A stretch of 64,000 nt of DNA from a bacterium. GTDB taxonomy: Bacteria > Patescibacteriota > Minisyncoccia > UBA6257 > GWB1-50-10. The position numbers and the translations under genes were made by a program. The first letter of the stretch is position 1. Every line of letters starts with the position of its first letter. Location of the stretch: NCBI GenBank assembly GCA_021812365.1, contig JAKANQ010000001.1, positions 32,763-96,762 on the forward strand, read 5' to 3'. Positions 2,088 to 16,689 of the stretch are shown here, in pieces. Under the pieces are notes generated by a model. It was not told the DNA's origin. It saw only the letters and a list, made by a program, of their open reading frames with translations, and searched no databases.

Positions 2088-2225
2088 CTAGAGCTAGAAC
2101 CGACCAGGTTCAAGCCCTGTAAAGCGGATTTGAACTAATTTTAACCTATTTCACGACGCATCTCGAGCGCTCCATATTTTCTAGAAAGTGACAAAAGTGA
2201 CACAAGAATGGGACTTTAGTGCGTC

Positions 2226-3181: not shown

Positions 3182-3183
3182 AG

Positions 3184-3786: not shown

Positions 3787-4234
3787 ACCTACGAATAAAC
3801 TGGTTGGGATAAGGGGCTTCGTCGAGAGCCTTTAGTATGTTTGCTTCTGTAAACGAATATACCCAAGCGGCCCTTGATCCTAAAAGTTCTTCAGGAGATT
3901 CAAACGTTCTATCTAATTTAACTGCTGCGATTCGCTTACCAAGATCAATACTTTGCCGCACTTCGAAGTTTATCCAATTTTTATATCCAATGAGGCCACG
4001 ATTTCTGTGTGGGGAGTTTGCATGTTCACCAACAATCACGAGTGTATGAGTAGCATCTTTTATCTTGGATGTAAGCGCCGCCTTTATTCTTCCGACATTT
4101 GAGCTATTAATTTCTTCTGGAGTAGCATCGTCAAATACAAATTTGAACTTTGGATTTTCATTCCAAGCTTCGAGTAGGTATTTATAATGCTTGTCGTTGT
4201 CGTAATCAAAACTGACAAATACTGAAGGTTTCAT
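3779..4234 (-). CDS. TIR-like domain protein (DUF1863/MTH538-type), second copy
   Basis: 151 aa. SVFVSFDYDNDKHYKYLLEAW is a classic TIR-like N-terminus. THTLVIVGEHANS is followed by NWINFEVRQSI, the same W-x-x-FE motif seen in the 183-aa paralog. Confidence 0.55.
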   Translation of the reverse strand: MKPSVFVSFDYDNDKHYKYLLEAWNENPKFKFVFDDATPEEINSSNVGRIKAALTSKIKDATHTLVIVGEHANSPHRNRGLIGYKNWINFEVRQSIDLGKRIAAVKLDRTFESPEELLGSRAAWVYSFTEANILKALDEAPYPNQFIRRYV

Positions 4235-4245
4235 TTTGTGTTTGT

Positions 4246-4485
4246 TTAATTTTTCCTATCTTTCGGCGGATTCGGATCCTTGCCGTAGCTATCTTTATCA
4301 CTGATTTTGCCATCCTTGTTGTGAATGACATGCTCAACTCCTGCTTTTTTAGCTTCGCGAATAGATTTTTCTTCGGCAGTTTCTTTAGTGTGAGAAGAAG
4401 AAACAGGTTTTTGCTGACCCTCTTTCTTGGTTTCCCACATACCACGGTCGGAGTTATAAACCGTATGAATGTTCTTTTTTGACAT
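4246..4485 (-). CDS. DUF2188-family small protein
   Basis: 79 aa. HTVYNSDRGMWETKKEG ... ELVIHNKDGKISDKDSYGKDPNPPKD matches the DUF2188 signature (hVvP..GWavk..G ... IHg.DG.I.d..SYG.DP.PP.D). Confidence 0.55.
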   Translation of the reverse strand: MSKKNIHTVYNSDRGMWETKKEGQQKPVSSSHTKETAEEKSIREAKKAGVEHVIHNKDGKISDKDSYGKDPNPPKDRKN

Positions 4486-4487
4486 GG

Positions 4488-5147
4488 TTAACTTGATTTT
4501 GGTTTTTTAATTACGTCTACGACCTTTCCGCTGATCTGAAAATCATCTCCTCTGTGAACGAATATAGGCATGAATGTTTCGGTGGATTCAGACTCAAGCA
4601 CAATCTGATCGTGTTCTTTATCTTCCTTGTAGCGTTTAATGGTGCCCATGCCGTCGATAACCGCCACCACGATATCTCCATTTTTAGGATTCTTGTAGGT
4701 GCTATCAACCACGACAAAATCACCATCCTCAATGGTTGGACCATCGGGACGTACCTTCGCCAAATTCATAGACAGACCATCTGCAACGAGAACAAAGAGG
4801 TCCTGCTTCTTACGGGGTAGCATTTTAGCGGAAACCTTGAGGTATCCCTCTGTTCGACTTTCCGCGAATATGGTTGCTGGCCCGCAATTTGCAGCTCCCA
4901 CGATAGGAAGGGAGTAGAACAGGCTCTTAGCGGCTGATTTAAGGTTAAAGCCCCTGCTTACGGGCTTTATAACGCCCTTATCGAGGTTAACCTGCAATAA
5001 CCCAGCTTTTCCCAGCTGGATCAGGTGGTGTTTCACGATCTGGGGCTTGTTTTCCACCCCGATGAGTTTAGCGATTTGGCGATAGCTCAAAGACTCCAAA
5101 TTTTGATGTTTTGAGAGGTTTAATATTGCGGCCTGGATTTTATGCAT
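4488..5147 (-). CDS. LexA/cI-like S24-family transcriptional repressor (HTH plus autopeptidase)
   Basis: 219 aa. N-terminal HTH (LSYRQIAKLIGV). C-terminal S24 fold with the Ser in VADGLSMN and the Lys in GTIKRYK. An internal GPA cleavage-site candidate is present. First gene of the minus-strand operon; divergent from a plus-strand promoter. Confidence 0.65.
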   Translation of the reverse strand: MHKIQAAILNLSKHQNLESLSYRQIAKLIGVENKPQIVKHHLIQLGKAGLLQVNLDKGVIKPVSRGFNLKSAAKSLFYSLPIVGAANCGPATIFAESRTEGYLKVSAKMLPRKKQDLFVLVADGLSMNLAKVRPDGPTIEDGDFVVVDSTYKNPKNGDIVVAVIDGMGTIKRYKEDKEHDQIVLESESTETFMPIFVHRGDDFQISGKVVDVIKKPKSS

Positions 5148-5153
5148 GCCTTA

Positions 5154-5182
5154 ATATTAGCATACTTTTTGGCTGTTTGCAA
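5154..5182 (-). promoter_or_regulatory. candidate sigma70-type promoter (TTGCAA, 17 nt spacer, TAATAT) about 6 nt upstream of the repressor ATG; implies a leaderless mRNA
   Basis: On the minus strand: TTGCAAacagccaaaaagtatgcTAATATtaaggcATG. Confidence 0.35.
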
Positions 5183-5209
5183 GCTCGTCCGTAAATAAGT
5201 TTTACACGG

Positions 5210-5237
5210 TTGACACTATCTCGGGTGGTTATATAAT
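5210..5237 (+). promoter_or_regulatory. sigma70-like promoter (TTGACA, 16 nt spacer, TATAAT) for the small zinc-ribbon gene, divergent from the repressor
   Basis: TTGACActatctcgggtggttaTATAATggaactATG. A nearby inverted repeat GTAAAtaagtTTTAC (5191-5205) may be an operator. Confidence 0.5.
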
Positions 5238-5243
5238 GGAACT

Positions 5244-5528
5244 ATGTCCATGCAAAAGGTCGGTGAAAATCGGTTTCTGTATCGTTGCCCTAAATGTGAT
5301 ATGCCTATGCTGGAAAAGGTGGGGTCTAAACTTCTCCTTTTGCAACACTACAAGGGGCAGCGTGTTAAAACCGAGATAGAACGGGATTTGATAGCTCCCA
5401 CCAACAAGCTCACTATTCGGTGCGGCTCATGTAAAGAAGGAGCACAAACGTTTCTTCACTTCACAGAAATAATCAGAATGGGAGAATCCACTTCGGCGAA
5501 AGTAGTTGAGGTAGGTAGCGTGGTATAA
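5244..5528 (+). CDS. small zinc-ribbon protein (CxxC ... CxxC), cro/regulator-like position
   Basis: 94 aa. Cys pairs at YRCPKCDMP and IRCGSCKEG. Lies immediately downstream of a near-consensus promoter. Confidence 0.45.
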   Translation: MSMQKVGENRFLYRCPKCDMPMLEKVGSKLLLLQHYKGQRVKTEIERDLIAPTNKLTIRCGSCKEGAQTFLHFTEIIRMGESTSAKVVEVGSVV

Positions 5529-5561
5529 TAGGAGCGTAGGTTAACAATTTAACAGAGCATC

Positions 5562-5625
5562 GTCTGGAACGCCCAGACATTCATCTATACCAAATGGTAT
5601 GGGTGCGTGTCTGGGCGTTTTTTGT
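5562..5625 (+). terminator. rho-independent terminator with an alternative upstream hairpin (attenuator-like)
   Basis: acgcccagaca (5569-5579) can pair either with upstream gtctgg (5562-5567) or with downstream tgtctgggcgt (5608-5618), which is followed by TTTTTT. Lies in the leader of the ParB-MTase gene. Confidence 0.5.
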
Positions 5626-5683
5626 TTATCGAGTAAAGGTCGACGGTAAACATTCAAACGCCTCAACAAAAATAAACAAAAAC

Positions 5684-6976
5684 ATGAAACATCTAACTTG
5701 GCACAATGAAATAAGGAAAGTTAAGGACCTCATTCCCTGTGGTTCCAACCCACGCGTTATATCAGATAAAGAGCTTCGGGATCTTAAAAAAAGTATTAAG
5801 CGTTCAGGATATGCGGAGATTATCGCAATTGATGTTGATGGGGAAATTGTTGCAGGTAATCAGAGGCATCGCGCTCTTATGGAAATGGGTATGGGTGACA
5901 CAGAGGTAGATGTCCGGGCTCCGAGCCGTAAGCTCACAAAAGAAGAGTTCGATCGCTACCTTATAGCAAGCAACGCGCTTGGTGGCACTTGGGATTTTGA
6001 GAAGCTTAAATCGTTCAATCTCGATGAATTGATCGACATTGGATTCGATAAAAAAGAACTGGAGAATATTTGGACCGAAAATCTTGAGGTTGAAGATGAT
6101 GATTTTAACGAAACCGCTGAACTTAAAAAGATAAAGATTGCCAAAACCAAGCGCGGTGATTTAATCGCGCTTGGTCCTCATAAGCTTCTTTGCGGGGATT
6201 CTACCAAGCCTGAAACGCTCAAGCGGTTATTCGGGAAAGAACGCGCTTCTGTAATTTATAGCGACCCCGTTTATAATCTCCGTGGTGGTGTTGATTACAA
6301 CAAGGGCATCGGCGGCCGCGCAAATTATGGTGGCCATGTAAACGACACCCGCACCGACGATGAATACCGGGATTTTATTCGGAAAAGTCTTGAGTGCGCC
6401 CTTTCCGTGACTAAAGAAGATGCCCATGTCTTCTATTGGAACGACGAATCGAATATTTGGTTAATCCAAACCCTTTACCGTGAGCTAGGAATAGCGAACA
6501 AGCGCGTTTGTTTGTGGCTCAAGAACGGACAGAACCCGACTCCTGGCGTTGCATTCAATAAGTGCTATGAGCCATGCATTTACGGGGTTCGCGGAAAGCC
6601 ATATATCTCAAAGAACTTGCAGAACCTGAACGAGGTGATGAATAAGGAAATCACGACTGGCAACAGTCTCCTTGAAGAAACGCTTGATCACTTGGATGTG
6701 TGGATGGTAAGGCGTCTTTCTGGCAAAAGTTATGAACACGCCACGAGTAAACCAACCAAGCTTCACGAAAAAGCAATTCGGAGATGTACCTGTCCGGGTG
6801 AAATTATCTTGGATAGCTTTCTAGGCTCTGGCAGCACGTTAATCGCGGCCGAACAATTGAAGCGTCGCGTCTATGCCATCGAACTTGAGCCTATCTTCTG
6901 TGATCTTGCAATTAAACGGTATGAACGGCTCAGCGGGAAAAAGGCAAAAGTAATCCACCACTATGAAGAAGAATAA
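5684..6976 (+). CDS. ParB-like nuclease domain fused to a beta-class N4/N6 DNA methyltransferase (phage-type)
   Basis: N-terminal ParB/Srx-like domain (EIIAIDVDGEIVAGNQRHRA). MTase motif IV variant SDPVY and motif I LDSFLGSGST in IV-then-I order. The track ORF starts at 5594, but that extension crosses the terminator, so the Met at 5684 is the likely start. Confidence 0.6.
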   Translation: MKHLTWHNEIRKVKDLIPCGSNPRVISDKELRDLKKSIKRSGYAEIIAIDVDGEIVAGNQRHRALMEMGMGDTEVDVRAPSRKLTKEEFDRYLIASNALGGTWDFEKLKSFNLDELIDIGFDKKELENIWTENLEVEDDDFNETAELKKIKIAKTKRGDLIALGPHKLLCGDSTKPETLKRLFGKERASVIYSDPVYNLRGGVDYNKGIGGRANYGGHVNDTRTDDEYRDFIRKSLECALSVTKEDAHVFYWNDESNIWLIQTLYRELGIANKRVCLWLKNGQNPTPGVAFNKCYEPCIYGVRGKPYISKNLQNLNEVMNKEITTGNSLLEETLDHLDVWMVRRLSGKSYEHATSKPTKLHEKAIRRCTCPGEIILDSFLGSGSTLIAAEQLKRRVYAIELEPIFCDLAIKRYERLSGKKAKVIHHYEEE

Positions 6977-7364
6977 AAAGCAAAGTGAATTTTTGGAGCA
7001 ACTCAAGAAGATTCCTATTGTTTCCGTAGCTGCGGAGAAAACCGGCCTCTCGCGCAACAGTATCTATCGTTGGAAGCGGGATGATAAGGAATTTGAGAAG
7101 ACCATGGAAGATGCTCTCGCAGAGGGCGAAGCCCTTATTAACGATATGAGTGAGAGCCAACTACTCTCGTTCATCAAGGATAAGAGTTGGCAAGCGGTGT
7201 CATTTTGGTTGCGTCACAGAAACCCGAAGTTCCGCGAGCGCGTGGAAGTAACGGCGAAAATTGAAAATATTGAGTCGCTCACGCCAGAACAAGAAGATAT
7301 TGTTCGGAAAGCATTAGAGCTTGAATCGCAGGAAAAAGAATTACCAAAAGAGATACAAGTATGA
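6963..7364 (+). CDS. phage terminase small subunit-like HTH protein
   Basis: 133 aa. HTH (TGLSRNSIYRWKRDD). Overlaps the upstream ParB-MTase gene by 14 nt. Its stop overlaps the start of the large-subunit gene (ATGA). Confidence 0.5.
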   Translation: MKKNKKQSEFLEQLKKIPIVSVAAEKTGLSRNSIYRWKRDDKEFEKTMEDALAEGEALINDMSESQLLSFIKDKSWQAVSFWLRHRNPKFRERVEVTAKIENIESLTPEQEDIVRKALELESQEKELPKEIQV

Positions 7365-8800
7365 ACCAAGACAAAATCCCACAAGATGTTGTGGATGCCA
7401 TGGTGAAGGATAGGAAGATACGGATCACAATAATCAAAAAAAGCTTTTGGTACTTTTTCCACTTCTACCTTCCTCACTACATAAGATACAAAACCGCGCC
7501 GTTCCACCGCGAAATGTTTTCGATTGCGGAGAATGAATCTGTGAAAACGGTAGTTATCGAGGCGTTCAGGAATTCCGCAAAAACAACCATCATGACGCTC
7601 GCATATCCAATTTGGGCTATCATTGGCTGTCAGCAAAAGAAGTTCATCGTCATTCTCGCGCAGACTCAGCAACAGGCACGCCAAATCCTCTCAAACATAA
7701 AACGTGAGATGGAATCTAATATGTTATTGCGCGCAGACTTGGGGCCATTCGAAGAGCCAGACGATGAATGGCGTGCGGTATCTTTGGTGATTCCACGATA
7801 CGGAGCGCGTATTACGGTCGCCTCCATAGACCAATCCGTGCGTGGATTGCGGCACGGCCCCTATCGGCCCGATCTCATTATTTGCGACGACTTAGAAGAC
7901 TTGGATTCCGTGAGGAGCCGCGATATGCGCGACAAGCTCTACGAATGGCTTGTGGGCGATATTATCCCCTTAGGAGATGTGAATACCAGGTTGATTGTCG
8001 TAGGTACGCGGCTCCACGAAGATTCACTCATTATGCGTCTTCGTAAGCTGATTAGTGAGAAAAGAGTAAATGGAATTGCGCGTACCTATCCGCTCATAGA
8101 CGGGCAAGGAAATATTGCGTGGCCTGGGAAATATCCCAATGAGGAAACGATTGAAAAAGAAAAGCAACGTGTGGGCGATGAACGCGCATGGCGCAGAGAG
8201 TATTGTTTGGAAATCGTGGGCGACACCGATCAGGTAATAGACCAAACATGGATTCATTACTACGACAATCTTCCGATTAAGAAGGGTGCATACATCACGC
8301 TTACCGCAATCGACCTCGCTATTTCCGAGTCAAATCGCGCTGACTATACCGCCATGGTTACTGCAAATATATACATCATAGATGGCCAGATTTACGTCTA
8401 TATTCTTGAGCCAATCGTGAACGAACGGCTCACATATCCGGATATACTGGAGCGCGCACAAATCGTCTATTCCGCTTTCCACAAAAGCGGAGGGGTCATT
8501 ATCGTTGAGGATGTAGGTTTCCAAAAGTCTCTCGTGCAAGATCTTGAAGCTATGGGATACAACGCAGTCTCGTTTAAACCGGGCGGTGCAGATAAGCGTA
8601 TGCGTCTATCCCTTACGGCGGGAATGGTAAAATCTGGCCATGTGTTATTTCCGCGAAAGGGTGCGGAACTTCTCATTGATCAGATTGTTCATTTAGGGCA
8701 AGAGAAGCACGACGATTTGGCGGACGCCTTTTCCATGTTGGTAATAAAATCGGAAACATACCGACCATATACAGCGAGTGATTTTGTCGTTCTCGTTTAA
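7361..8800 (+). CDS. phage terminase large subunit
   Basis: 479 aa. Walker A-like FRNSAKTT and Walker B LIICDDLED. C-terminal RNaseH-like nuclease region with acidic residues (TAIDLA, HDDLADAF). Confidence 0.65.
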   Translation: MNQDKIPQDVVDAMVKDRKIRITIIKKSFWYFFHFYLPHYIRYKTAPFHREMFSIAENESVKTVVIEAFRNSAKTTIMTLAYPIWAIIGCQQKKFIVILAQTQQQARQILSNIKREMESNMLLRADLGPFEEPDDEWRAVSLVIPRYGARITVASIDQSVRGLRHGPYRPDLIICDDLEDLDSVRSRDMRDKLYEWLVGDIIPLGDVNTRLIVVGTRLHEDSLIMRLRKLISEKRVNGIARTYPLIDGQGNIAWPGKYPNEETIEKEKQRVGDERAWRREYCLEIVGDTDQVIDQTWIHYYDNLPIKKGAYITLTAIDLAISESNRADYTAMVTANIYIIDGQIYVYILEPIVNERLTYPDILERAQIVYSAFHKSGGVIIVEDVGFQKSLVQDLEAMGYNAVSFKPGGADKRMRLSLTAGMVKSGHVLFPRKGAELLIDQIVHLGQEKHDDLADAFSMLVIKSETYRPYTASDFVVLV

Positions 8801-8814
8801 CTGCTGGCATTAAA

Positions 8815-8850
8815 ACAAAACCACCGATATGTTCGGTGGCTTTGTTTTGG
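8815..8850. terminator. bidirectional hairpin terminator between the terminase gene and the convergent membrane-protein gene
   Basis: acaaaaccaccga / tcggtggctttgt arms with a 5 nt loop, flanked by A-run and T-run. Confidence 0.6.
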
Positions 8851-8855
8851 TGTTT

Positions 8856-9494
8856 TTACCGATAGTCTTCAACAATCATCGTATAAGTGCCGATTGTATT
8901 GGCATCAATGTAGTATTCTCCAGCACCGTACTCAATCGTTTCATCCTTCACCGGACCCATTACATTCATAATCGCTCCGGCTAGTATTTTACCTTTGTAC
9001 AAAAATGCCTGACAAAAATCTCCGGTACAGTCATAACGAATCCGAAAACGCGAACCCGTTATAGTAAAGGGTTCAGATTTCTTCGCGCCGTTTCCGGAAA
9101 AGGTAAAGATTTGTTGGTACGATTTTCCGGGTTGAACCGCAACTGGTTGCGTACGTTCGGGGCTTGTCGGTTGCTGATTATTAACGGTCTTACTCGCCTC
9201 GGGTGACGGCGTATTGTTCTGAGAAATCTCCGCGCCACCGTTCTTCGCTATGAAGACCCCGGCCAAAATAACCAGAATTATAATCGCCAAGATTCTAACC
9301 CCACTCGACAACTCATGCTTAATCCTACCCTCAATGATTTTGTTTATCGGCGGAATCGAAATTGTCGAGGCAACAATAAAGAGAAACCCAGCAAGTGTGT
9401 TGCTTGCTATATTAGCGATTCCCGTAATGAGCAGTATCACGCCAACCAACCATCCAAGAATCAAACCAACGGTTATTTTTTTGTTTTCGTTCAT
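8856..9494 (-). CDS. membrane protein (2 TM helices, Pro/Gln-rich linker, C-terminal beta-rich domain), unknown function
   Basis: 212 aa. Two N-terminal helices, then a low-complexity linker NNTPSPEASKTVNNQQPTSPERTQP, then a Cys-containing C-terminal domain. Confidence 0.45.
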   Translation of the reverse strand: MNENKKITVGLILGWLVGVILLITGIANIASNTLAGFLFIVASTISIPPINKIIEGRIKHELSSGVRILAIIILVILAGVFIAKNGGAEISQNNTPSPEASKTVNNQQPTSPERTQPVAVQPGKSYQQIFTFSGNGAKKSEPFTITGSRFRIRYDCTGDFCQAFLYKGKILAGAIMNVMGPVKDETIEYGAGEYYIDANTIGTYTMIVEDYR

Positions 9495-9528
9495 ATGTTT
9501 TTAGTTGAGTCTTGTTCGACCTTGAAGT

Positions 9529-9700
9529 GCTGGCTAGAAACACAAAGCTGCTAGCCAGCGGTCCCTTGCGGAACCCATACTCCTTTCGGAATATGACCAT
9601 CCCTGGTGTTCTGACTAGCAGCTCTCTACCAGGGATGGATTTAGAACCGTGCCGCCGGATTACTCCGATGGGTTAGGTTCCGCCTTACAGCTAGTAAGGC
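9529..9700. other. cluster of three strong inverted repeats (hairpins) without U-tracts; candidate structured RNA or recombination/packaging site
   Basis: 9529-9537/9551-9559 (9 bp stem); 9597-9607/9628-9638 (11 bp perfect stem); 9682-9688/9694-9700 (7 bp stem). Between the first two, the minus strand shows small GNRA-looped hairpins (TTCC-GCAA-GGGA and TCC-GAAA-GGA). Confidence 0.45.
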
Positions 9701-9844
9701 TATTCAGTTGTAAATTGATTTTAACGCATTTCGACCTTTGATTCTATACCCCTATCACAAACCATTGTTTTTGCTAAGCCGGACCATCGACACGTTGTCG
9801 ACAACTTAGCTTTACTTCCCCGACCAGTCTGTCATCCATTAAAT

Positions 9845-11164
9845 ATGGATAAAGAACAAAGGACAGGACTTATCGGCAATCCAGCTGTAGTTCCTATAAT
9901 AAAGGTCAGATATTGCTTATATGCTAGAAAGTCGACCGAACAGGACGAGAAACAAGCCCTTTCGATAGACTCACAGATAAAAGAAATGCTAGCCATCGCT
10001 GAACGCGATGAATTGGAAATAGTCGATATTCGCAGAGAAGCTCATTCAGCTAAAGATTCGGGGCAGAGACTAGTGTTCAAGGAATTATTAGAGGATATAC
10101 GACGAGGGAGATATAACGGAATTCTTACCTGGGCACCCGATCGGTTAAGCAGAAACGCAGGAGATTTAGGAAGTGTGGTTGATCTAATGGATCAAAAATC
10201 GCTTATCGAAATTCGGACTTATGGTCAACAATTCAGAAATTCTCCAAATGAAAAGTTCTTACTAATGATTTTATGCAGTCAGGCAAAACTGGAGAACGAC
10301 AATAAAAGTATCAATGTAAAACGTGGATTAAAGACAAGAGTTGAAATGGGTTTATGGCCAGCCCCAGCTCCAACGGGATATTTAAAAGAAAAGCGGATGG
10401 ATAGAAAATGTGAAACTCTTATTGACCCAGCCAGAGCGCCAGTCATCAAACAGGTGTTTGAAAAAGTTGCTTATGAAAAATGGAGTGGTCGGAAAGTTTA
10501 TAACTGGCTCAAATTCGATCTTAACTTTAAGACGGCTACTGGGAACAAGAATCTCACATTAGGGAATGTGTATATGATTCTTCAAAATCATTTCTATTAT
10601 GGAACTTTTGAATATCCTAAAAATAGCGGCAATTGGTATAAAGGAAAACATGAGCCGATCATAACTAAGGAACTGTTTGATGCGGTTCAAAACCAGGTCA
10701 AAAGCCAATTCATACGATCCGAGAGTAAGGAATTTGCTTTTACTAAATTAATGACCTGCGGCCTATGTGGATCAGGCATAACGGCCGATGAGAAGTTCAA
10801 AAAGCAGAAAAATGGGAATGTTCACCGTCACGTTTACTACGGGTGTACGAAAGTACGAGATAGAGATTGTAAATGTGGGTATATCAACGAGGTTGACCTC
10901 CTAAAACAATTTGAGAAACTTATTGAAAAAATAGATATCGACGAAATCGGAATCAAGGAGAAAATCAAAACTGAGGTTGAGCGGTTTAAGAAATTTCAGC
11001 AAGTAGTTCTCGGATCTAAGAAAAAGATTGTAGTTGCCGATATAGACATAAGAAATTATGCGAAGTACATCCTTAGGGAAAGCAAGGATATAGAGAAAAG
11101 AGAACTTCTAGGATGCCTTAGAAGTAAGATTATTTTAAATAATAAGCAAATCACCATTTCTTAA
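9845..11164 (+). CDS. large serine recombinase (resolvase/invertase catalytic domain, recombinase domain, zinc ribbon)
   Basis: 439 aa. Catalytic YARKSTEQ with the Ser nucleophile, then a recombinase domain, then a C-terminal Cys cluster CGLCGS ... CKCGY. Confidence 0.7.
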   Translation: MDKEQRTGLIGNPAVVPIIKVRYCLYARKSTEQDEKQALSIDSQIKEMLAIAERDELEIVDIRREAHSAKDSGQRLVFKELLEDIRRGRYNGILTWAPDRLSRNAGDLGSVVDLMDQKSLIEIRTYGQQFRNSPNEKFLLMILCSQAKLENDNKSINVKRGLKTRVEMGLWPAPAPTGYLKEKRMDRKCETLIDPARAPVIKQVFEKVAYEKWSGRKVYNWLKFDLNFKTATGNKNLTLGNVYMILQNHFYYGTFEYPKNSGNWYKGKHEPIITKELFDAVQNQVKSQFIRSESKEFAFTKLMTCGLCGSGITADEKFKKQKNGNVHRHVYYGCTKVRDRDCKCGYINEVDLLKQFEKLIEKIDIDEIGIKEKIKTEVERFKKFQQVVLGSKKKIVVADIDIRNYAKYILRESKDIEKRELLGCLRSKIILNNKQITIS

Positions 11165-11243
11165 TGAACTACTCTCTTGCGGTATCAAAAAAATCATTGA
11201 ATTTAAGGGGTCTACTGAGCTTTCCCGGGGACGAATTGAATAG

Positions 11244-11249
11244 TATAAT
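11244..11249 (+). promoter_or_regulatory. TATAAT -10 element 8 nt upstream of the MTase ATG (leaderless-type start)
   Basis: agTATAATcaaacaaaATG. No convincing -35. Confidence 0.3.
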
Positions 11250-11257
11250 CAAACAAA

Positions 11258-14200
11258 ATGTCGGACACATTACTTAAAGTAGTTCCAAAACAGCGGAAAT
11301 ACTATCAGGATAAAGCTAATAGCCTGAGGCTACTTGCGGCAAAAGAATTGAGAGATGCCTTTTTGGCCTCCTATGATGAGGATATCTCTCGAAAAACTGT
11401 TTCCGAGTCTTGTTTGGCTGAGTATATTGATACCTTTCCCGATCAAGACTCAGTAAAAACTTTTGCCTTTAATCTTTTAATAAACAATAAAGCTATAGAC
11501 GACTTACTGAAGGGATATGATCCGATAGAAATATCATATGTTGGCTCTTATATAGGAGAGGCAACCTACAGATCCTTTATCAGTCCAACTGATATTTCTC
11601 GAGTAATGGATTTCTTGGCACCATCAAAGGCTATTGGGTATTTTTTCACACCACCGGAGGTAGCATTCTTAATGGCCGATAAAATAATATCTTCTACTGA
11701 CAAAAGTATTGATATCCTAGATCCGAGTGCTGGATACGGTTCGCTATTAGTCGCGTCCTTAATAGTAGCAAAGAATAAAGGGGCAAAATTTAGTTCTGTA
11801 ACCGCAATTGAAGTTGATTCATTTACCTCAAAGAATTTAAAAAAGATTCTTGAAAGAGTTGTCGAGCTATTAGAATTTGATACAAAGCTAAATATTATCA
11901 ATGAAAATGCCATAGGATATTTAGCCAATAGTTTAAACGGTTTATTCGGTCGCCCTGCAAGATTTCAAAAAATCATAATGAATCCACCCTATGGGAGGGT
12001 GAAGTTTTTGAAAAACTTTTTAACAAACAAAGAAACTAGAACCTCTAGCGCTTTATTATCTCACGAAGAACAAGGGATAAAAATAAAAACAAAAGTAGAA
12101 AAGCTAACAAGAGAATTAGATATCATTTCACAAAAGCTCGGTTTCGATTCCAACGTAAGAGAGTACTCGAAATTATTTGTTGCATTAAGCCTCTCAAACT
12201 TAGCTCCCGACGGCCGGATGAGCGTGATTACCCCAAGTACTTGGCTTGGTGATGTTGAGTCGTATGACTTAAGGAAATTAATCATTAACAACTCATACCT
12301 AGAGCAAATTTTACTTTTCCCTGAAGACAGCGGCTTATTCGAAACCGTGAATCAACACACGGCAGTCAGTATCTTGTCTAAACAAGAAAAGGAAATGTTC
12401 GAGATTGTATCCGATTACAATTTGAATGTAAAATTTAGCAGGTCAAACAAGGTTTACTACGCCGATATTAAAAAAAATAATCCACAGGGATTAAAAATCC
12501 CGAAGCATGGCTCGGAGCATGATGAAATCATTTCCAAAATTCAACAACATAAACCGATCCGGCTAATTGAAAACTTAAAGAACCTTAGGGGAGAAATAGA
12601 TCTCTCCTTAAACAAGGATCTAGTATCCAACAAAGACACTGGCCGTCGATTAATCAGAGGCGATCACGTGGAAAGGTACATACTGCATCCGACGACAAAA
12701 TCTAAACGAGATGGATTCATTGAAGAAAGTAGGCTTGGCGAGAAGTTTCGATCACTTCCTAAATTTAAAGATAGTTTAAATTTCAGAATTGTTGGACGCC
12801 AAGTTTCTTACTTAGATAAAAAGAGGCGCTTAGATTTTTGCCTTATTGATCCTGATAGTTTTGTGAGTAATTCTTGCAACTACCTTTACTTTAAGTCTGA
12901 CGACGGCCAAAAAAAACCGAGCAGAAAGTTACTATCTTTATTGGGGATATTAAATAGCTCTGTTCTTGAATGGTATTTCAGGCTTTACAATAGCAACAAC
13001 CATGTCGCTAACTACGAGATAGCAAATTTTCCAGTCTGCTTAGATAGTGAATTTATTCCGCTAATAGCGAAATCTACGGAATTTCTTATCGGGGCATATA
13101 AAGAAGAATCACGGGATGAATCTGTTTCTGGCATAGAAGATTTCCACGATGCCTTGGTTGGCGTGGCGTATGATCTTACGCCAATAATGATCGGTACTAT
13201 TATGGAGTCAATTGACCCCAAAAGAAAAGGTAGGGTTGTAAATTTTGCGGAACACATATGTGAAGGTAATCTACCTCTCGATTTTATGAAGAGCGATCAT
13301 TGGTTTAATCATTATGTCTCAACGCTGTCTGATTTAGACCAAGAGATAATTAAACATGTTCCCCAAGGAGGAAATTGGCAAGATATTCCCGAGGAAGTTC
13401 CTTCTCAAAGGCTACGGCAGATACGTGAAATGTCGAAAGAGCGCGGTGTTGTGCGAACTACCTATTATGGAAGACTAAGACCGGATCAACCATCATATAC
13501 CATTGCTACGTACTATAATCGTCCCGGTAATGGAACAAACATTCATCCATGGGAAGACAGGACGATTTCTTCGCGTGAAGCGGCAAGACTCCAATCTTTT
13601 CCCGATAGTTATATTTTCTTTGGATCTGAAGGCGGTATTAGAACTCAGATAGGAAATGCCGTCCCTCCGCTACTTGCTTATTCATTGGGAAAGCATATCG
13701 GAAGCCGCTATGGCTTTGGCACCTGCGTTGACGCCTTTGCCGGTGCCGGTGGTCTAAGTTGTGGATTAGAGCTTGCTGGCTGGAAAGTGATTGCGGCTAA
13801 CGACAATGATAAACACGCCTCAATAACTTACCGGGCGAATAGGCCCACGGAAAAGACGCCGACTAGTGATGACAAAAAGACTTTCTTTGTAGAGGGAGAT
13901 ATTAACAATAAGAAAATTTGGGAAGAACTTTTATCAGGAATCAAAAAGAAGCTCGGCAATAAAGAATTAGATCTGCTAGTAGGTGGCCCACCGTGCCAAG
14001 GGTTTTCCCACGCTGGATTCAGAAGAGAGGATGATATACGCAACGACCTAGCCTCTATATATTTGAAGCTAGCAATTAAGCTAAGTCCTAAGACCTTTAT
14101 TCTTGAAAATGTAGAGGGACTTCTCACATACAATTCCGGACAGGTAGTAAAGGATATCATTGAGGCTTTGACGGATATCGGCTATCACGTTGAAGCTCCA

Positions 14201-14521
14201 TGGGTACTTAACGCAGAGCAATTTGGCGTACCTCAAATGCGAAGACGAGTATTGATTGTTGCGAATAGAAAAGAAATTGTGCCAAATATGCCAAACTTAT
14301 TTCGCAAATGTGCTGGTCGACGTTCTGGAAAGGTTATTGAGCAACTACACTTAGCACCTCCCGTGACTGCGGGAGAGGCTCTTATAGATCTACCACCGCT
14401 AAAGAAAAGAAGATTTCTAAAGGGAATTAATGATATTAACAAATTGTATTCCCAATGGTTAAAAGGGCTAATTAGCGCTGAGAGATTCCTAGAATCGCGA
14501 TCTAAGATAAGGGAATCGTAG
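11258..14521 (+). CDS. fused DNA methyltransferase: N-terminal gamma-class N6-adenine MTase (Eco57I/TaqI-like) plus C-terminal circularly permuted C5-cytosine MTase
   Basis: 1087 aa. N-terminal motif I ILDPSAGYGSLL and motif IV IIMNPPYG. C-terminal region carries motif IX/X (REAARLQSFPD, GNAVPP) before motif I (FAGAGGLSCG), motif IV (GGPPCQGFS), motif VI (ENVEGLL) and motif VIII (QFGVPQMRRRVLIV). Confidence 0.7.
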   Translation: MSDTLLKVVPKQRKYYQDKANSLRLLAAKELRDAFLASYDEDISRKTVSESCLAEYIDTFPDQDSVKTFAFNLLINNKAIDDLLKGYDPIEISYVGSYIGEATYRSFISPTDISRVMDFLAPSKAIGYFFTPPEVAFLMADKIISSTDKSIDILDPSAGYGSLLVASLIVAKNKGAKFSSVTAIEVDSFTSKNLKKILERVVELLEFDTKLNIINENAIGYLANSLNGLFGRPARFQKIIMNPPYGRVKFLKNFLTNKETRTSSALLSHEEQGIKIKTKVEKLTRELDIISQKLGFDSNVREYSKLFVALSLSNLAPDGRMSVITPSTWLGDVESYDLRKLIINNSYLEQILLFPEDSGLFETVNQHTAVSILSKQEKEMFEIVSDYNLNVKFSRSNKVYYADIKKNNPQGLKIPKHGSEHDEIISKIQQHKPIRLIENLKNLRGEIDLSLNKDLVSNKDTGRRLIRGDHVERYILHPTTKSKRDGFIEESRLGEKFRSLPKFKDSLNFRIVGRQVSYLDKKRRLDFCLIDPDSFVSNSCNYLYFKSDDGQKKPSRKLLSLLGILNSSVLEWYFRLYNSNNHVANYEIANFPVCLDSEFIPLIAKSTEFLIGAYKEESRDESVSGIEDFHDALVGVAYDLTPIMIGTIMESIDPKRKGRVVNFAEHICEGNLPLDFMKSDHWFNHYVSTLSDLDQEIIKHVPQGGNWQDIPEEVPSQRLRQIREMSKERGVVRTTYYGRLRPDQPSYTIATYYNRPGNGTNIHPWEDRTISSREAARLQSFPDSYIFFGSEGGIRTQIGNAVPPLLAYSLGKHIGSRYGFGTCVDAFAGAGGLSCGLELAGWKVIAANDNDKHASITYRANRPTEKTPTSDDKKTFFVEGDINNKKIWEELLSGIKKKLGNKELDLLVGGPPCQGFSHAGFRREDDIRNDLASIYLKLAIKLSPKTFILENVEGLLTYNSGQVVKDIIEALTDIGYHVEAPWVLNAEQFGVPQMRRRVLIVANRKEIVPNMPNLFRKCAGRRSGKVIEQLHLAPPVTAGEALIDLPPLKKRRFLKGINDINKLYSQWLKGLISAERFLESRSKIRES

Positions 14522-16082
14522 TAGAATCGCTGAGGATAGAAAAAACTTGGCGTAACTTTTTGCTTAGAGCAGAGTACTTCTTAGAATCAATTTTCTTTGA
14601 TCGCAAGCCTGAGATATTGCTTTCTCTTTTTGTGCTAGAAACATTTGTTTTCATAGCCCTGTCCCAATTCTTCATATCTGGTGACAGAGGTATTTTCTTT
14701 GCTTCGGCAACAACCGCATCAATTTCGCCACTAAAGTTATCTACGTAGATCTTACGCACCTTCCTATCAACAATGGACTTATCTTGATAAAGCATAAGTT
14801 CTTCGAACGCTATGCGAATTATTCTGTTCGAAAGACTATTGCGAAGCTTAGTATTGATTGGCGTTTTACTAAAGCTTGCAAAGGTTAGGTCACTAGAATT
14901 AAGTTTGTCGAACTTAACTCTGAACAGCGCATATTCTGGATGGAGTATCGTCGTTAGATATTCTGAATAACCGTTCTCGAAAAGAGAGTAAAGCGTTCTA
15001 AGATAGAAGTCTTGCATCGCCCTCATGTAGTCACTCAACTCTTTGGCATCCCTATCGTTTTTGACCAAAAACTTGTACTTATCCCACAATGGTTGCACTT
15101 GCCAACTAGCCACAGATTCATTTGTGCGTTTTTCATAGTCAATTAATATCTTTATATCGCTTAAAAACATTCTGCGATTCTTACTACTATTACAAGGTCC
15201 GCAAGTTGGGAGAAATAAAGGAAGCTGTTTAAATCCACAAGCTAAAGGACCAACATGATCTGGACTTATTTTCTTAAGCTTTTTGCCGCATATGTAACAC
15301 CTTCCGGCGCCAGCGGAATTATATAGCGCGTCAGCGATCAGCCAATCGCCGTCAGACCATAATTCAAAAACCCTTCTATCGTGAAGATAAGATTTAAGGT
15401 TTTCGGGCGATCTTCCGGGGTCTTTTGTAGCTCTGCATAAGTGGCAATAGTCATGGAAACCATCTAAGCGATCTGGTGGATTGCACATGAAACCGGGACT
15501 CAGATAGACTGAACGAATATAATTACTTTTCTCAAAAGCTTCTTTGGAAAAACCAAATTTATTAAAGAAATCAGCTCTTTCGGGAAAAATCTTTTCTAGG
15601 CGCTCTTCAATCTGCTTTTTATTTTCGATTCCGCCAAGAATTTTGATCGCCTCGTCAATAGGCATCTTTTTTGAGAATAGAGAAGTTTTTGTTTCTCTGT
15701 TTAGATATTCTGTAAATACGTGATTGAGATAGAAATAGCCGACGTTTTGCGATTTCCCGCATAGACGACAAGGTCTATAGCCTGTGGGGCTAATCAACCT
15801 CGCCGTTATACTAAAACGATCATCAGAATTTCCTTTTCCCGGAACTTTAAGACTGTTCGCCTTTTTAACCCACCACTCAAAGCGCTCTACGTAATATTTG
15901 TAAAAAGAGGTTGATTTGCCAGAGCTGACTTGCCAATTTATTTTCCCATTTTCAGATATGGCGTTAGGCATTCCTTTGAAGTTGGGGTGTTTAACAATAA
16001 GGCCCATGTAATCAATGTAATTTTGATGGGCCTGATATTTCCCTCTGCCGTAAACTGGTTTTGCCATTTCCTTCACTTCCAT
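14502..16082 (-). CDS. putative HNH-type restriction endonuclease (Type IIS-like partner of the fused MTase)
   Basis: 526 aa. HNH/His-Me finger CYICGKKL ... SPDHVGPL ... CGPCNSSKNRR. Convergent with the MTase and overlapping it by 20 nt. AT-rich. Confidence 0.5.
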   Translation of the reverse strand: MEVKEMAKPVYGRGKYQAHQNYIDYMGLIVKHPNFKGMPNAISENGKINWQVSSGKSTSFYKYYVERFEWWVKKANSLKVPGKGNSDDRFSITARLISPTGYRPCRLCGKSQNVGYFYLNHVFTEYLNRETKTSLFSKKMPIDEAIKILGGIENKKQIEERLEKIFPERADFFNKFGFSKEAFEKSNYIRSVYLSPGFMCNPPDRLDGFHDYCHLCRATKDPGRSPENLKSYLHDRRVFELWSDGDWLIADALYNSAGAGRCYICGKKLKKISPDHVGPLACGFKQLPLFLPTCGPCNSSKNRRMFLSDIKILIDYEKRTNESVASWQVQPLWDKYKFLVKNDRDAKELSDYMRAMQDFYLRTLYSLFENGYSEYLTTILHPEYALFRVKFDKLNSSDLTFASFSKTPINTKLRNSLSNRIIRIAFEELMLYQDKSIVDRKVRKIYVDNFSGEIDAVVAEAKKIPLSPDMKNWDRAMKTNVSSTKRESNISGLRSKKIDSKKYSALSKKLRQVFSILSDSTTIPLS

Positions 16083-16150
16083 AACCGAAATATGCCACTT
16101 TTTAGGTGTTTTTACAATGTTGTTTTTGTTTTATCAAGAACACCAAAAAG

Positions 16151-16180
16151 AAAAACCACTGAAATTTATCAGTGGTTTTT
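16151..16180. terminator. bidirectional rho-independent terminator
   Basis: aaaaaccactga / tcagtggttttt arms around a 6 nt loop, with A-run and T-run flanks. Confidence 0.6.
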
Positions 16181-16285
16181 CTTTCTTGAATACGGCACTC
16201 AGCCGGTATGCTATGGACTGTATGGAGTGCTCTCGCTCTTCGGCTTGATCCACGCTTCTCGAGCGGGATAACCTATCACGAGTTG

Positions 16286-16338
16286 GCTGGGGGACTAGGA
16301 ATCGGACCTAGATTCACGGCTTCAAAGGCCGCTGTCCT
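16286..16338 (-). repeat. 53 bp exact direct repeat of the 3' part of tRNA-Gln (tRNA positions about 20 to 3' end), 100 bp from the gene
   Basis: gctgggggactaggaatcggacctagattcacggcttcaaaggccgctgtcct is identical at 16286-16338 and 16386-16438. Confidence 0.8.
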
Positions 16339-16386
16339 GTCGCTCGCGCAGTGAGGAAATAAATACATGAACATTTCTATGCATTG

Positions 16387-16457
16387 CTGGGGGACTAGGA
16401 ATCGGACCTAGATTCACGGCTTCAAAGGCCGCTGTCCTACCATTAGACGATCCCCCA
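16387..16457 (-). tRNA. tRNA-Gln (anticodon UUG); CCA not encoded
   Basis: Minus strand TGGGGGATCGTCTAATGGTAGGACAGCGGCCTTTGAAGCCGTGAATCTAGGTCCGATTCCTAGTCCCCCAG. Acceptor TGGGGGA/TCCCCCA, 3 bp D-stem, anticodon stem GCGGC/GCCGT, loop CUUUGAA, T-stem CTAGG/CCTAG. The T-loop is noncanonical (UCCGAUU). Confidence 0.65.
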
Positions 16458-16523
16458 GCAATACACACAAAAACATGTGCATGTATTATATTTCCGAACG
16501 AAACGTAGTGACAAGCGTAGCGC

Positions 16524-16543
16524 TACCATTAGACGATCCCCCA
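16524..16543 (-). repeat. 20 bp exact copy of the tRNA-Gln 5' end (positions 1-20), about 80 bp upstream of the gene
   Basis: taccattagacgatccccca occurs at 16438-16457 (inside the tRNA) and again at 16524-16543. The breakpoint is the same D-loop position where the 3' repeat begins. Confidence 0.7.
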
Positions 16544-16689
16544 ATGAAGATAACTTTATACAATAAACGCAAAAGTGTAAATGAAAAGTACGTTCATAGA
16601 GGAACGTCGTTTTATAAGGTTTCAACGGCATAAACCATGCGTTATTCGGGGAATATGATATAATCGAATTAATCATTTCGAACTATCCT

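What the first reader, a model, noticed from the sequence alone, without database searches (positions are those of the whole stretch)
16286..16543. tRNA-Gln flanked on both sides by partial copies of itself, all broken at the same D-loop position
The intact tRNA-Gln (minus strand, 16387-16457) is followed 47 bp downstream by an exact 53 bp copy of its 3' portion (position 20 to the end). It is preceded 66 bp upstream by an exact 20 bp copy of its 5' portion (positions 1-20). Both fragments end or begin at the same nucleotide. This points to repeated site-specific recombination at a single core in the D-loop, that is, scars of successive integration and excision events. It marks the right boundary of the accessory island. 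A conserved breakpoint on both sides is unusual, since most tRNA-targeting integrases duplicate only the 3' portion.
Basis: seen in the sequence. Interest (0 to 1): 0.6.

Follow-up and report, generated by a model that had tools for sequence, protein, structure and literature searches.

The report
Live tRNA-Gln nested in dead copy
A working glutamine tRNA gene with its own promoter sits inside the broken halves of an older copy of the same gene; this is an inherited scar of mobile-DNA traffic at a tRNA hotspot, older than the defence island beside it and not made by it.

Summary
tRNA-Gln(UUG) lies at 16386-16457 (minus strand). An exact 53-nt copy of its positions 20-72 lies 47 nt downstream. 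An exact 21-nt copy (not 20) of positions 1-21 lies 65 nt upstream. The two copies overlap by 2 nt.

Read together, the two fragments are one older tRNA-Gln gene split in its D-loop. The split holds a 184-bp cassette: promoter TTGTCA-18-TATAAT, leader, intact tRNA, trailer.

The same arrangement occurs in two sister lineages (about 88% and 78% nucleotide identity) that lack the island, each with its own substitutions and indels. So it is inherited. It is neither an assembly artefact nor a product of the neighbouring island.

The island is 14.2 kb (window 2084-16285). It carries a serine integrase, a restriction-modification system, ThsB-like genes and terminase. It arrived later and starts right after the 3' fragment, with GCTGG repeated at both ends. 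Its integrase family commonly sits beside tRNA 3' ends.

The cassette arms pair into a roughly 50-bp hairpin closed by the old acceptor stem. Five compensatory changes occur across three lineages, which a pure scar does not predict.

Origin: most likely one small insertion with a 2-bp junction. Two separate D-loop integrations are not excluded. No donor element was found.

Interest is moderate to low: a variant of a known phenomenon.

The parts
16523..16543 (-). Outer 5' fragment: exact copy of tRNA-Gln positions 1-21 (5' acceptor strand, D-stem, D-loop). This is the displaced 5' end of an older gene copy.
   Evidence: Orthologous copies are TGGGGGATCGTCTAATGGTGG in L037 and TGGGAGACCATCTAATGGTGG in L040.
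16544..16585 (-). Conserved promoter-like block upstream of the outer 5' fragment (TTTACA-17-TAAAGT, or TGTATAAAG as an extended -10). Probably the orphaned promoter of the older gene. Read on the + strand it could instead serve the divergent response-regulator gene.
   Evidence: The promoter scan gives 16581..16553. The block is nearly invariant in three lineages while sequence further upstream is not. A similar TTATTGTTAAAT lies upstream of the plain tRNA-Gln of L107.
16458..16522 (-). Spacer X (65 nt): left arm of the cassette. It carries the promoter of the intact tRNA (TTGTCA-18-TATAAT, 16514..16485) and a 29-nt leader.
   Evidence: Promoter scan matches 11 of 12 positions. TTCGTTCGGAAATATAATACA is invariant in three lineages.
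16386..16457 (-). Intact tRNA-Gln(UUG), the live gene. It is 72/72 identical in all three lineages. Its T-loop is the unusual TCCGATT (C at position 55).
16339..16385 (-). Spacer Y (47 nt): right arm of the cassette (trailer). It is complementary to X over most of its length. ATTTCCTCACTGCG is invariant in three lineages.
16286..16338 (-). Outer 3' fragment: exact copy of tRNA positions 20-72, here followed by CA, so a CCA end is encoded. It forms the tRNA-proximal edge of the island insertion site.
   Evidence: L037 has the same fragment interrupted by a 45-47-nt insert after position 28. L040 has a degenerate, shortened version.
2084..16285 (.). 14.2-kb accessory island, a later arrival. It carries two ThsB/TIR-like genes, a CI-like S24 repressor, an N6/N4 methylase, small and large terminase, a large serine integrase, and a fused N6/C5 methylase with an Alw26I-type endonuclease. 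GCTGG is repeated at both edges (2079-2083 and 16286-16290).
   Evidence: Blast of L040/L041 against the window joins 16338 to 2083.
9845..11164 (+). Large serine integrase of the island (Resolvase + Recombinase + Zn_ribbon_recom). It is the only recombinase in the island.
   Evidence: 42 relatives were found in IMG/VR, many 100-2000 nt from the 3' end of a tRNA on the opposite strand.
2084..2150 (-). Distal island end: weakly tRNA-Gln-like degenerate sequence ending in CCAGC, directly followed by host DNA that matches the empty site of L040.
   Evidence: (32 of 1000 shuffles reach the score). Weak evidence.
16145..16186 (.). Perfect 16-18-bp hairpin with T runs on both sides: a bidirectional terminator at the end of the island's endonuclease gene.
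   Evidence: (I6).

Best explanation
The three pieces are one structure. An older tRNA-Gln gene was split in its D-loop, between positions 19 and 22. A 184-bp self-sufficient cassette (own sigma-70 promoter, 29-nt leader, complete tRNA-Gln, 47-nt trailer) now sits in the gap and is the live gene.

The older gene's promoter plus its first 19-21 nt remain upstream. Its last 53 nt remain downstream. Both are dead.

I read the cassette as what is left of mobile DNA that entered the tRNA gene and brought its own replacement copy. It most likely arrived in one insertion with a 2-bp junction, the signature of a serine recombinase or of a transposase making a 2-bp staggered cut. This is inferred.

The event predates the split of three lineages and has been inherited vertically. 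This is shown.

In this genome and in L037 the 3' fragment has been kept identical to the live gene, probably by gene conversion. This is inferred.

The 14.2-kb island is a separate, later arrival. Its large serine integrase placed it at the very 3' end of the dead 3' fragment, which now acts as a landing pad that spares the live gene. The boundaries are shown; the mechanism is inferred.

The cassette arms and the old acceptor strands pair into one long hairpin that has been maintained by compensatory changes. Its role is open.
For: 1. Exact repeats and their coordinates.

2. The minimum-free-energy fold pairs the outer 5' strand with the outer 3' strand, and X with Y. The inner tRNA sits at the tip. 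z = -4.4.

3. The same nested layout occurs in the island-free relatives L037/L038 (about 88% nt identity) and L039-L041 (about 78%). Each has its own substitutions and indels.

4. The inner tRNA is 72/72 identical in all lineages, and X carries an 11/12 promoter match.

5. More distant relatives of the same clade (L101, L107) have a plain, un-nested tRNA-Gln with a different T-arm. This fits the inner copy being a replacement.

6. The outer 3' fragment shows 0 differences in 53 nt between the window and L037. X and Y show 10 differences in 112 nt.

7. A second small insert in L037's 3' fragment also shows a 2-nt junction overlap: CG, positions 27-28.

8. The island is absent from L040/L041 with contiguous flanks. 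Its only recombinase is a large serine integrase. Relatives of that integrase sit next to tRNA 3' ends and share a GCGACC/GTGACC motif 13-25 nt beyond the tRNA.

9. 5' fragments of this same tRNA-Gln type, broken at positions 21-22, occur in viral contigs. One lies directly after a tyrosine-integrase C-terminus in L006. A tRNA-Ser in L082 beside a related serine integrase has the same double-flank layout.
Against: No donor element was found. No joined Y|X junction (attP) was found either. Exact scans of IMG/VR and blastn against phages gave only chance hits or hits to the tRNA body.

No relative shows the un-split older gene at this position next to the response regulator. The insertion is therefore inferred from anatomy only.

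L040's 3' remnant shares derived features (TTCGATTACCCTGTC) with a degenerate fragment downstream of the un-nested tRNA of L101. This suggests the 3' fragment may be older than the 5' fragment, which would mean two events.

Position 20 of the 5' fragment is G in both sister lineages. The neat 2-nt overlap may therefore be secondary.

The terminal inverted repeat of the insert is only 7-8 bp.

A pure scar does not predict the long X-Y complementarity or its compensatory changes.

Only three lineages are available.
Confidence: 0.6

Rival explanations
1. Two independent older integrations at the D-loop of tRNA-Gln. One element entered upstream and supplied a promoter plus the 5' part, displacing the native positions 1-21. 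Another entered downstream and supplied or duplicated the 3' part from position 20. Both elements later decayed to 65 and 47 bp.
For: Islands that integrate upstream with a repeat covering the 5' acceptor strand, D-stem and D-loop are described, as are downstream D-loop integrations.

Viral contig L006 has an integrase C-terminus followed by exactly tRNA-Gln positions 1-21.

L082's tRNA-Ser has a 5' copy broken in the D-loop and a 3' copy broken in the T-loop, so the breakpoints differ.

L040's 3' remnant is homologous to the old fragment of L101, where there is no 5' fragment.
Against: It needs two elements whose junctions happen to fall within 2 nt of each other.

Tyrosine-type events should leave a shared overlap region of 6-8 nt in both fragments, not 2 nt.

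It does not explain why X and Y are complementary over about 45 bp.

No integrase remnant is left in either spacer.
Confidence: 0.25
2. The nested layout is now a selected RNA architecture. Transcripts from the old promoter fold into a roughly 60-bp processing stalk (old acceptor strands plus X/Y). This stalk presents the live tRNA for maturation or controls its expression, much as leader-trailer stems flank rRNAs.
For: The hairpin has 51 pairs and 94.6% of cells are paired across three lineages. Five pairs change on both sides, one in each of four helices; only 2 of 500 shuffles reach this, and shifted registers give 0-1.

The X-Y duplex gives z = -4.1, -5.5 and -2.7.

The old promoter block and the Y segment ATTTCCTCACTGCG are invariant.

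The outer acceptor stem keeps pairing in L040 through G:C to A:U, even though the rest of the 3' fragment has decayed.

The other tRNA of the window (Gly) has no such flanks.
Against: Only three lineages are available.

Eight cells are unpaired, and a 5-nt deletion in L040 removes part of the central helix.

A:C mismatches are about as frequent as G:U pairs, so the strand is not identified.

Templated repair within quasi-palindromes can create paired changes without selection.

There is no expression data.
Confidence: 0.2
3. One reading: both fragments are scars of repeated integration and excision of the neighbouring island at one D-loop core.
For: The island abuts the 3' fragment. The island encodes a site-specific recombinase.
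Against: Island-free relatives have the same fragments.

The island's junction repeat GCTGG lies at the tRNA 3' end, not in the D-loop.

Relatives of the integrase sit at tRNA 3' ends.

The window holds no further copy of either fragment that could bound the island.
Confidence: 0.04
4. The 184-bp insert is a non-autonomous hairpin element (MITE-like) that carries a tRNA gene and transposes with a 2-bp target duplication.
For: The insert is a long imperfect palindrome with 7-8-bp terminal inverted repeats, CGCT(A)CGC and GCG(-)AGCG, and a 2-nt flanking repeat.

A second short, Y-related insert with a 2-nt overlap lies in L037.
Against: There is no second copy of X, Y or the junctions in the 64-kb window, in about 1.2 Mb of fetched loci, or in the IMG/VR or JGI scans.

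The insert sits at the same place in all three lineages.

The L037 insert lacks terminal inverted repeats.
Confidence: 0.07
5. Assembly or local duplication artefact in a repeat.
For: The start-to-start spacing of the 53-mers is exactly 100 nt.
Against: k = 141 exceeds the repeat lengths. Independent assemblies with two assemblers, and diverged orthologous copies, show the same order.
Confidence: 0.01

Closest known systems
Partial tRNA copies (attL/attR remnants) and decayed elements at tRNA integration hotspots: tandem arrays of integrative elements and cis-mobilizable remnants
   Same: Direct repeats made of pieces of the target tRNA. A live tRNA is kept. An island with an integrase lies next to a fragment. 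Older degenerate fragments lie nearby. Such arrays and scattered partial tRNAs are described for integrative elements (PMC7192596) and for tycheposons (bioRxiv 10.1101/2020.12.28.424599).
   Different: The DNA between the repeats here is only 65 and 47 bp, with no element genes. Fragments lie on both sides of the live gene and meet at the same D-loop position. The live gene has its own promoter inside the gap. The spacers are mutually complementary.
Genomic islands using the D-loop sublocation and integrating upstream of the tRNA (K. pneumoniae arg2 islands; bioRxiv 10.1101/2020.11.02.365908)
   Same: The repeat consists of the 5' acceptor strand, D-stem and D-loop. The displaced 5' fragment lies upstream of the restored gene.
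   Different: Those islands carry tyrosine integrases and are complete. Here no integrase remains upstream, and the junction overlap is 2 nt.
Large-serine-recombinase elements at tRNA genes (a minority of tycheposons; S-Ints generally 'not known for targeting tRNA genes', PMC7192596)
   Same: The island's only recombinase is a large serine integrase. Its relatives sit beside tRNA 3' ends (Asp, Ser, Gln, Glu, Asn).
   Different: Here the target is the 3' end of a dead tRNA fragment, not the live gene. The host is a Patescibacteria (CPR) genome.
Archaeal split or intron-containing tRNA genes with non-canonical intron positions
   Same: The look is similar: tRNA halves separated by an intervening sequence whose ends pair in a helix.
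   Different: This is a bacterial genome. The outer 3' half is interrupted in L037 and decayed in L040, so the outer tRNA cannot be the functional product. The intervening sequence holds a promoter and a whole tRNA. No bulge-helix-bulge motif was identified.
Leader-trailer processing stems of rRNA operons
   Same: Long pairing between sequences 5' and 3' of a mature structured RNA, kept by compensatory change.
   Different: Not described for a tRNA gene to my knowledge. Here the stem is built from a dead gene copy and insertion arms. Processing is untested.

Membership tests
tRNA attachment-site scar (remnant of an integrative element) | Direct repeats that are partial copies of the target tRNA flank the inserted DNA | tested here: met
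   21-nt 5' copy and 53-nt 3' copy, both in the tRNA's orientation.
tRNA attachment-site scar (remnant of an integrative element) | Element genes (integrase) or recognisable element DNA between the repeats | tested here: not met
   Only 65 and 47 bp remain, with no coding capacity. The only similarity to element DNA is a short motif: the Y end GAGCGAC|AGG against L097's CACTAAGCGACCGG.
tRNA attachment-site scar (remnant of an integrative element) | Relatives with the uninterrupted site | tested here: inconclusive
   All three syntenic lineages keep the nested layout. Un-nested tRNA-Gln genes exist in more distant relatives (L101, L107), but their upstream flanks are not syntenic.
Island integrated by a large serine recombinase (the 14.2-kb island) | Resolvase-Recombinase-Zn-ribbon integrase encoded in the island | tested here: met
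   Window 9845-11164: Pfam PF00239, PF07508 and PF13408; phrog_95.
Island integrated by a large serine recombinase (the 14.2-kb island) | Precise presence/absence against a relative | tested here: met
   L040/L041 join window 16338 to 2083.
Island integrated by a large serine recombinase (the 14.2-kb island) | Short crossover (2 bp) at the centre of imperfectly symmetric att sites | tested here: inconclusive
   A 5-bp GCTGG repeat lies at both edges. The dyad symmetry of the reconstructed attP is unclear.
D-loop sublocation, upstream-integrating islands (tyrosine integrase) | Repeat consists of the 5' acceptor strand, D-stem and D-loop upstream of the restored tRNA | tested here: met
   Positions 1-21 are repeated 65 nt upstream.
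D-loop sublocation, upstream-integrating islands (tyrosine integrase) | Tyrosine integrase next to the repeat, and an identity block that includes a 6-8-bp overlap region shared by both att sites | tested here: not met
   There is no integrase upstream, and the overlap with the 3' fragment is 2 nt. A tyrosine integrase next to a 1-21 fragment is seen only in viral contig L006.
Spliced or split tRNA (archaeal type) | Both exons intact and conserved, so that a functional outer tRNA can be made | tested here: not met
   The outer 3' half is interrupted in L037 and decayed in L040.
Spliced or split tRNA (archaeal type) | Bulge-helix-bulge motif and a splicing endonuclease in the host | not tested
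   The genome is bacterial (LepA, DnaX, MurA). No endonuclease search is possible on a partial genome.
MITE-like hairpin element | Several copies in the genome with different flanks | tested here: not met
   No further copy in the window, in the fetched loci or in the collection scans. Only about 100 kb of this genome is available.
MITE-like hairpin element | Terminal inverted repeats and a target-site duplication | tested here: inconclusive
   7-8-bp imperfect terminal repeat. The 2-nt overlap is exact only in this genome.

The most novel reading that the evidence does not exclude
The dead outer tRNA halves and the insertion arms have been taken over as a functional element. One possibility is a long processing or control stalk for the genome's tRNA-Gln(UUG), a 'tRNA inside a tRNA-like scaffold'. 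Another is that the dead 3' fragment is kept identical to the live gene because it serves as a decoy attachment site, drawing serine-integrase elements away from the live gene. Either would be a new way for a small-genome bacterium to live with tRNA-targeting mobile DNA.
Probability: 0.15. Interest if true: 0.6.

Novelty: new variant of a known kind. Interest (0 to 1): 0.35.

Why it matters
The locus shows that partial tRNA copies beside an island need not belong to that island. Here they are older than three lineages, so island-boundary callers that rely on tRNA fragments would misplace boundaries.

It gives a clean example of a complete replacement tRNA gene, with its own promoter, lodged in the D-loop of its predecessor. 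The host is a Patescibacteria genome. Such genomes are small and usually carry few redundant tRNA genes (general knowledge; not checked for this genome), so disruption of the gene would probably be costly.

Two side results are testable. First, a family of large serine integrases is tied to tRNA 3' ends. Second, a tRNA flanked by a conserved long stem shows compensatory changes.

If the stem or the decoy fragment proves functional, the locus would show mobile-DNA scars being recruited for RNA processing or for protecting an essential gene.

Tried and rejected
1. Chance or artefact. Rejected and by independent, diverged assemblies.

2. Further copies that could bound the island. None in the window at up to 3 mismatches or by blastn-short.

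3. Relatives in GTDB species genomes, searched through the histidine kinase.

4. JGI metagenome scans with the invariant X 20-mer and with the old-promoter 19-mer. The first gave zero hits and the second only chance hits.

5. Donor element or attP.
   - The exact Y|X 16-mer in IMG/VR gave 18 chance hits with about 25% flank identity.
   - The X 17-mer and Y 18-mer gave unrelated coding hits.
   - blastn against 50,697 phages matched only the tRNA body.

6. Rfam. Nothing but the tRNA; the other hits are the terminator hairpin.

7. The distal island end as a displaced copy of the 3' fragment. Similarity is only marginal (32 of 1000 shuffles) and it is not orthologous to L040's remnant.

8. Tandem-duplication and inverted-duplication models of origin. 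Considered and dropped, because the outer pieces are neither tandem units nor reverse complements of each other.

9. A general leader-trailer habit of this genome. The tRNA-Gly at 50000-50073 has a plain promoter and terminator.

10. Full reconstruction of the order of events among L101, L040, L037 and the window. Not resolvable with the lineages at hand.

Full report
OBSERVATION

ARAGORN finds two tRNAs in the window. One is tRNA-Gln(UUG) at 16386-16457 on the minus strand. Rfam's tRNA model matches 16387-16457 at 61.3 bits.

The 53 bases 16286-16338 are identical to 16386-16438, which is tRNA positions 20-72. The 21 bases 16523-16543 are identical to 16437-16457, which is positions 1-21. Neither has any other match in the window at up to three mismatches, and none is expected by chance.

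- the upstream copy is 21 nt, not 20;
- its spacer is 65 nt, not 66;
- the two copies overlap by two bases (AG, positions 20-21).

ANATOMY

Read in the tRNA's direction, the order is:
1. a conserved promoter-like block;
2. the 5' fragment (positions 1-21);
3. X (65 nt);
4. the intact tRNA;
5. Y (47 nt);
6. the 3' fragment (positions 20-72);
7. the island.

The two fragments add up to one complete tRNA-Gln, interrupted in the D-loop by X-tRNA-Y (184 bp).

X carries a near-consensus promoter, TTGTCA-18-TATAAT, 29 nt upstream of the intact tRNA. A second promoter-like site, TTTACA-17-TAAAGT, lies just upstream of the 5' fragment.

Folding the whole stretch pairs the outer 5' strand with the outer 3' strand. 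It also pairs X with Y over almost their full length, leaving the intact tRNA at the tip (z = -4.4). The X-Y duplex is far more stable than with shuffled Y, in all three lineages (z = -4.1, -5.5 and -2.7). The window's other tRNA (Gly) has an ordinary promoter and terminator and no such flanks.

SOURCE AND RELATIVES

The window comes from a 102-kb MEGAHIT contig of an ENA metagenome. DnaX relatives name the group as Patescibacteria: Jorgensenbacteria, Minisyncoccia or Parcubacteria.

Searching with the neighbouring histidine kinase gave only two close lineages:
- L037/L038: 94% protein identity, about 88% DNA identity;
- L039-L041: 85% protein identity, about 78% DNA identity.

Both lack the island at this position, and both keep the nested layout.

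In L037:
- the 5' fragment has one change (G at position 20);
- the 3' fragment is otherwise perfect but is interrupted after position 28 by a 45-47-nt insert;
- that insert is an inverted, diverged copy of Y (1 of 500 shuffles reach its score);
- its junctions again overlap by 2 nt (CG, positions 27-28).

In L040:
- the 5' fragment has five changes from the live gene's positions 1-21, including that same G at position 20;
- the 3' fragment is shortened and degenerate;
- the outer acceptor pairing survives through a G:C to A:U double change.

The intact tRNA is identical in all three lineages.

The inference of an artefact is not. The copies have diverged as orthologous DNA does, in independent assemblies.

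THE ISLAND

L040 and L041 align to the window down to 16338 and resume at 2083. The accessory segment is therefore 2084-16285, with GCTGG repeated at 2079-2083 and 16286-16290.

It encodes:
- two ThsB/TIR-like proteins;
- a CI-like S24 repressor;
- a DNA methylase;
- small and large terminase;
- a large serine integrase;
- a fused N6/C5 methylase with an Alw26I-type endonuclease.

It has no tyrosine integrase.

Forty-two relatives of the integrase (43-79% identity) occur in IMG/VR. At least eleven lie about 100 to 2,900 nt from the 3' end of a tRNA on the opposite strand, the same geometry as here. The tRNAs differ: Asp, Ser, Gln, Glu, Asn, Trp. A short motif (GCGACC or GTGACC) recurs 13-25 nt beyond the tRNA end. 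The island end next to the 3' fragment is homologous to the corresponding stretch of L077.

The island therefore entered at the 3' end of the dead 3' fragment. It did not enter in the D-loop, and it did not create the fragments. Serine integrases were described as not known for targeting tRNA genes (PMC7192596). A minority of tycheposons at tRNA genes do carry them.

AGE AND ORIGIN OF THE NESTED LAYOUT

More distant relatives found through DnaX have a plain tRNA-Gln.

In L101 it lies directly after a DinB-family (Y-family DNA polymerase) gene. A degenerate 3' fragment (anticodon loop to CCA) lies about 128 nt downstream. L107 has a plain gene with CCA.

Their T-arm (CGGGGTTCGAATCCCTG) differs from that of the window clade (CTAGGTCCGATTCCTAG, with C at position 55). 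The first 47 nt are identical in L101. This fits the live copy, or its 3' part, having been brought in from outside.

L040's 3' remnant shares the derived TTCGATTACCCTGTC with L101's fragment. A 3' fragment may therefore have existed before the 5' fragment did.

Between the window and L037, X and Y differ at 10 of 112 positions while the 3' fragment differs at 0 of 53. That points to gene conversion from the live gene, or to selection.

Elsewhere:
- viral contig L006 has a tyrosine-integrase C-terminus followed by exactly positions 1-21 of this tRNA type;
- L016 breaks at position 22;
- L082 has a tRNA-Ser beside a related serine integrase, with a 17-nt 5' copy 98 nt upstream and a 17-nt 3' copy 148 nt downstream.

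Islands integrating upstream of a tRNA, with a D-loop repeat, are described in K. pneumoniae. tRNA 5' fragments broken in the D-loop are thus a recurrent product of mobile elements.

WHICH MECHANISM

I favour one insertion of a small promoter-tRNA cassette, the remnant of an element that carried its own replacement tRNA. Three points support it:
- the two fragments meet at one point;
- the insert is a single palindromic unit;
- both this insert and the second one in L037 show 2-nt junction overlaps, as expected from a serine recombinase or a 2-bp staggered cut.

The main rival is two separate D-loop integrations, one upstream-type and one downstream-type, both since decayed. It is supported by the L101/L040 fragment homology and by L082's unequal breakpoints.

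Neither model is proven. No donor or joined Y|X junction was found. No un-split older gene was found at this site.

THE HAIRPIN

The analysis covered 51 pairs: the outer acceptor stem plus three X/Y helices.
- 94.6% of cells are paired across the three lineages.
- Five pairs change on both sides, one or more in every helix.
- Only 2 of 500 shuffles reach this, and shifted registers give 0-1.

Against a strict requirement for pairing, eight cells are unpaired and L040 has lost 5 nt of the central helix. Templated repair in quasi-palindromes could also mimic selection.

I therefore treat a functional stalk, or a decoy attachment site, as the most novel reading not excluded. It is not the main conclusion.

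VERDICT

It is wrong on cause and timing.

The thing is a live tRNA-Gln gene nested in its dead predecessor. It is inherited, and it now serves as the attachment point of a serine-integrase defence island. It is a variant of a known phenomenon. The one unexplained feature is the maintained long stem.

Noticed in passing
window 9845-11164; loci L059-L100: The island's large serine integrase belongs to a family (42 IMG/VR relatives, 43-79% identity). Members repeatedly sit 100-2900 nt from the 3' end of a tRNA on the opposite strand (Asp, Ser, Gln, Glu, Asn, Trp). A GCGACC/GTGACC motif lies 13-25 nt past the tRNA. A serine-integrase clade that systematically targets tRNA 3' ends is uncommon in the literature.
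   Followed up: partly
L082 16040-16425 (minus strand): tRNA-Ser(GCU) beside a related serine integrase has the same double-flank layout. An exact 17-nt copy of its 5' end lies 98 nt upstream (broken in the D-loop). An exact 17-nt copy of its 3' end lies 148 nt downstream (broken in the T-loop). An inverted copy of the 3' end lies in between.
   Followed up: partly
L037 13057-13103: A 45-47-nt insert sits in the outer 3' fragment after tRNA position 28. It is an inverted, diverged copy of spacer Y, giving Y - 9 nt - inverted Y, with a 2-nt (CG) junction overlap. Its origin is unexplained.
   Followed up: partly
L006 (IMGVR_UViG_3300025924_000324), L016, L018: These viral contigs carry 5' fragments of the same tRNA-Gln type. 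They break at position 21 (L006, right after a tyrosine-integrase C-terminus), at position 22 (L016) and in the anticodon loop (L018, also after an integrase-like C-terminus). These are elements that carry the 5' part of the tRNA rather than the 3' part.
   Followed up: partly
window 16401-16417 (T-arm of the tRNA): The live tRNA-Gln has the T-loop TCCGATT, with C at the near-universal U55 position. Related genomes (L101, L107) have the canonical TTCGAAT. The unusual sequence is conserved in all three nested lineages.
   Followed up: no
L101 8720-8770 (minus strand): The un-nested tRNA-Gln of GCA_027349205.1 is followed, about 128 nt downstream, by a degenerate 3' fragment (anticodon loop to CCA). 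That fragment shares derived changes with L040's remnant. The tRNA-Gln locus was therefore already a used attachment site in the common ancestor.
   Followed up: partly
window 2630-3181 and 3779-4234 (minus strand): Two ThsB/TIR-like genes without an obvious ThsA partner lie in the island, beside a CI-like repressor and a type IIS-like restriction-modification pair. The island looks like a defence island built on a decayed prophage or satellite: terminase genes are present but no capsid genes.
   Followed up: no
window 12326-12353 (+): A 28-nt stretch inside the island's methylase gene resembles tRNA-Gln positions 22-47 (82% identity, E = 0.056), in the opposite orientation. Probably chance.
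   Followed up: no
L013 3560-4060: A phage contig holds a truncated tRNA-Gln 5' piece amid repeated GATGAGCCCA motifs, plus a sub-threshold Rfam match to YrlA (Y RNA-like, 34.6 bits). ARAGORN calls no tRNA there.
   Followed up: partly
L048 (Ga0307946_1000114), tRNA-Met: An unrelated metagenome contig, fetched by a chance pattern match, has a tRNA-Met with an exact 16-nt copy of its 5' end 257 nt upstream. This is another upstream 5' fragment.
   Followed up: no
window 16350-16412 (+): On the strand opposite to the tRNA, the conserved part of Y reads GAGGAAATAAATACATG, a Shine-Dalgarno-like site followed by ATG. It opens a 14-codon frame running antisense into the tRNA. The spacing is altered in L040, so it is probably meaningless.
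   Followed up: no
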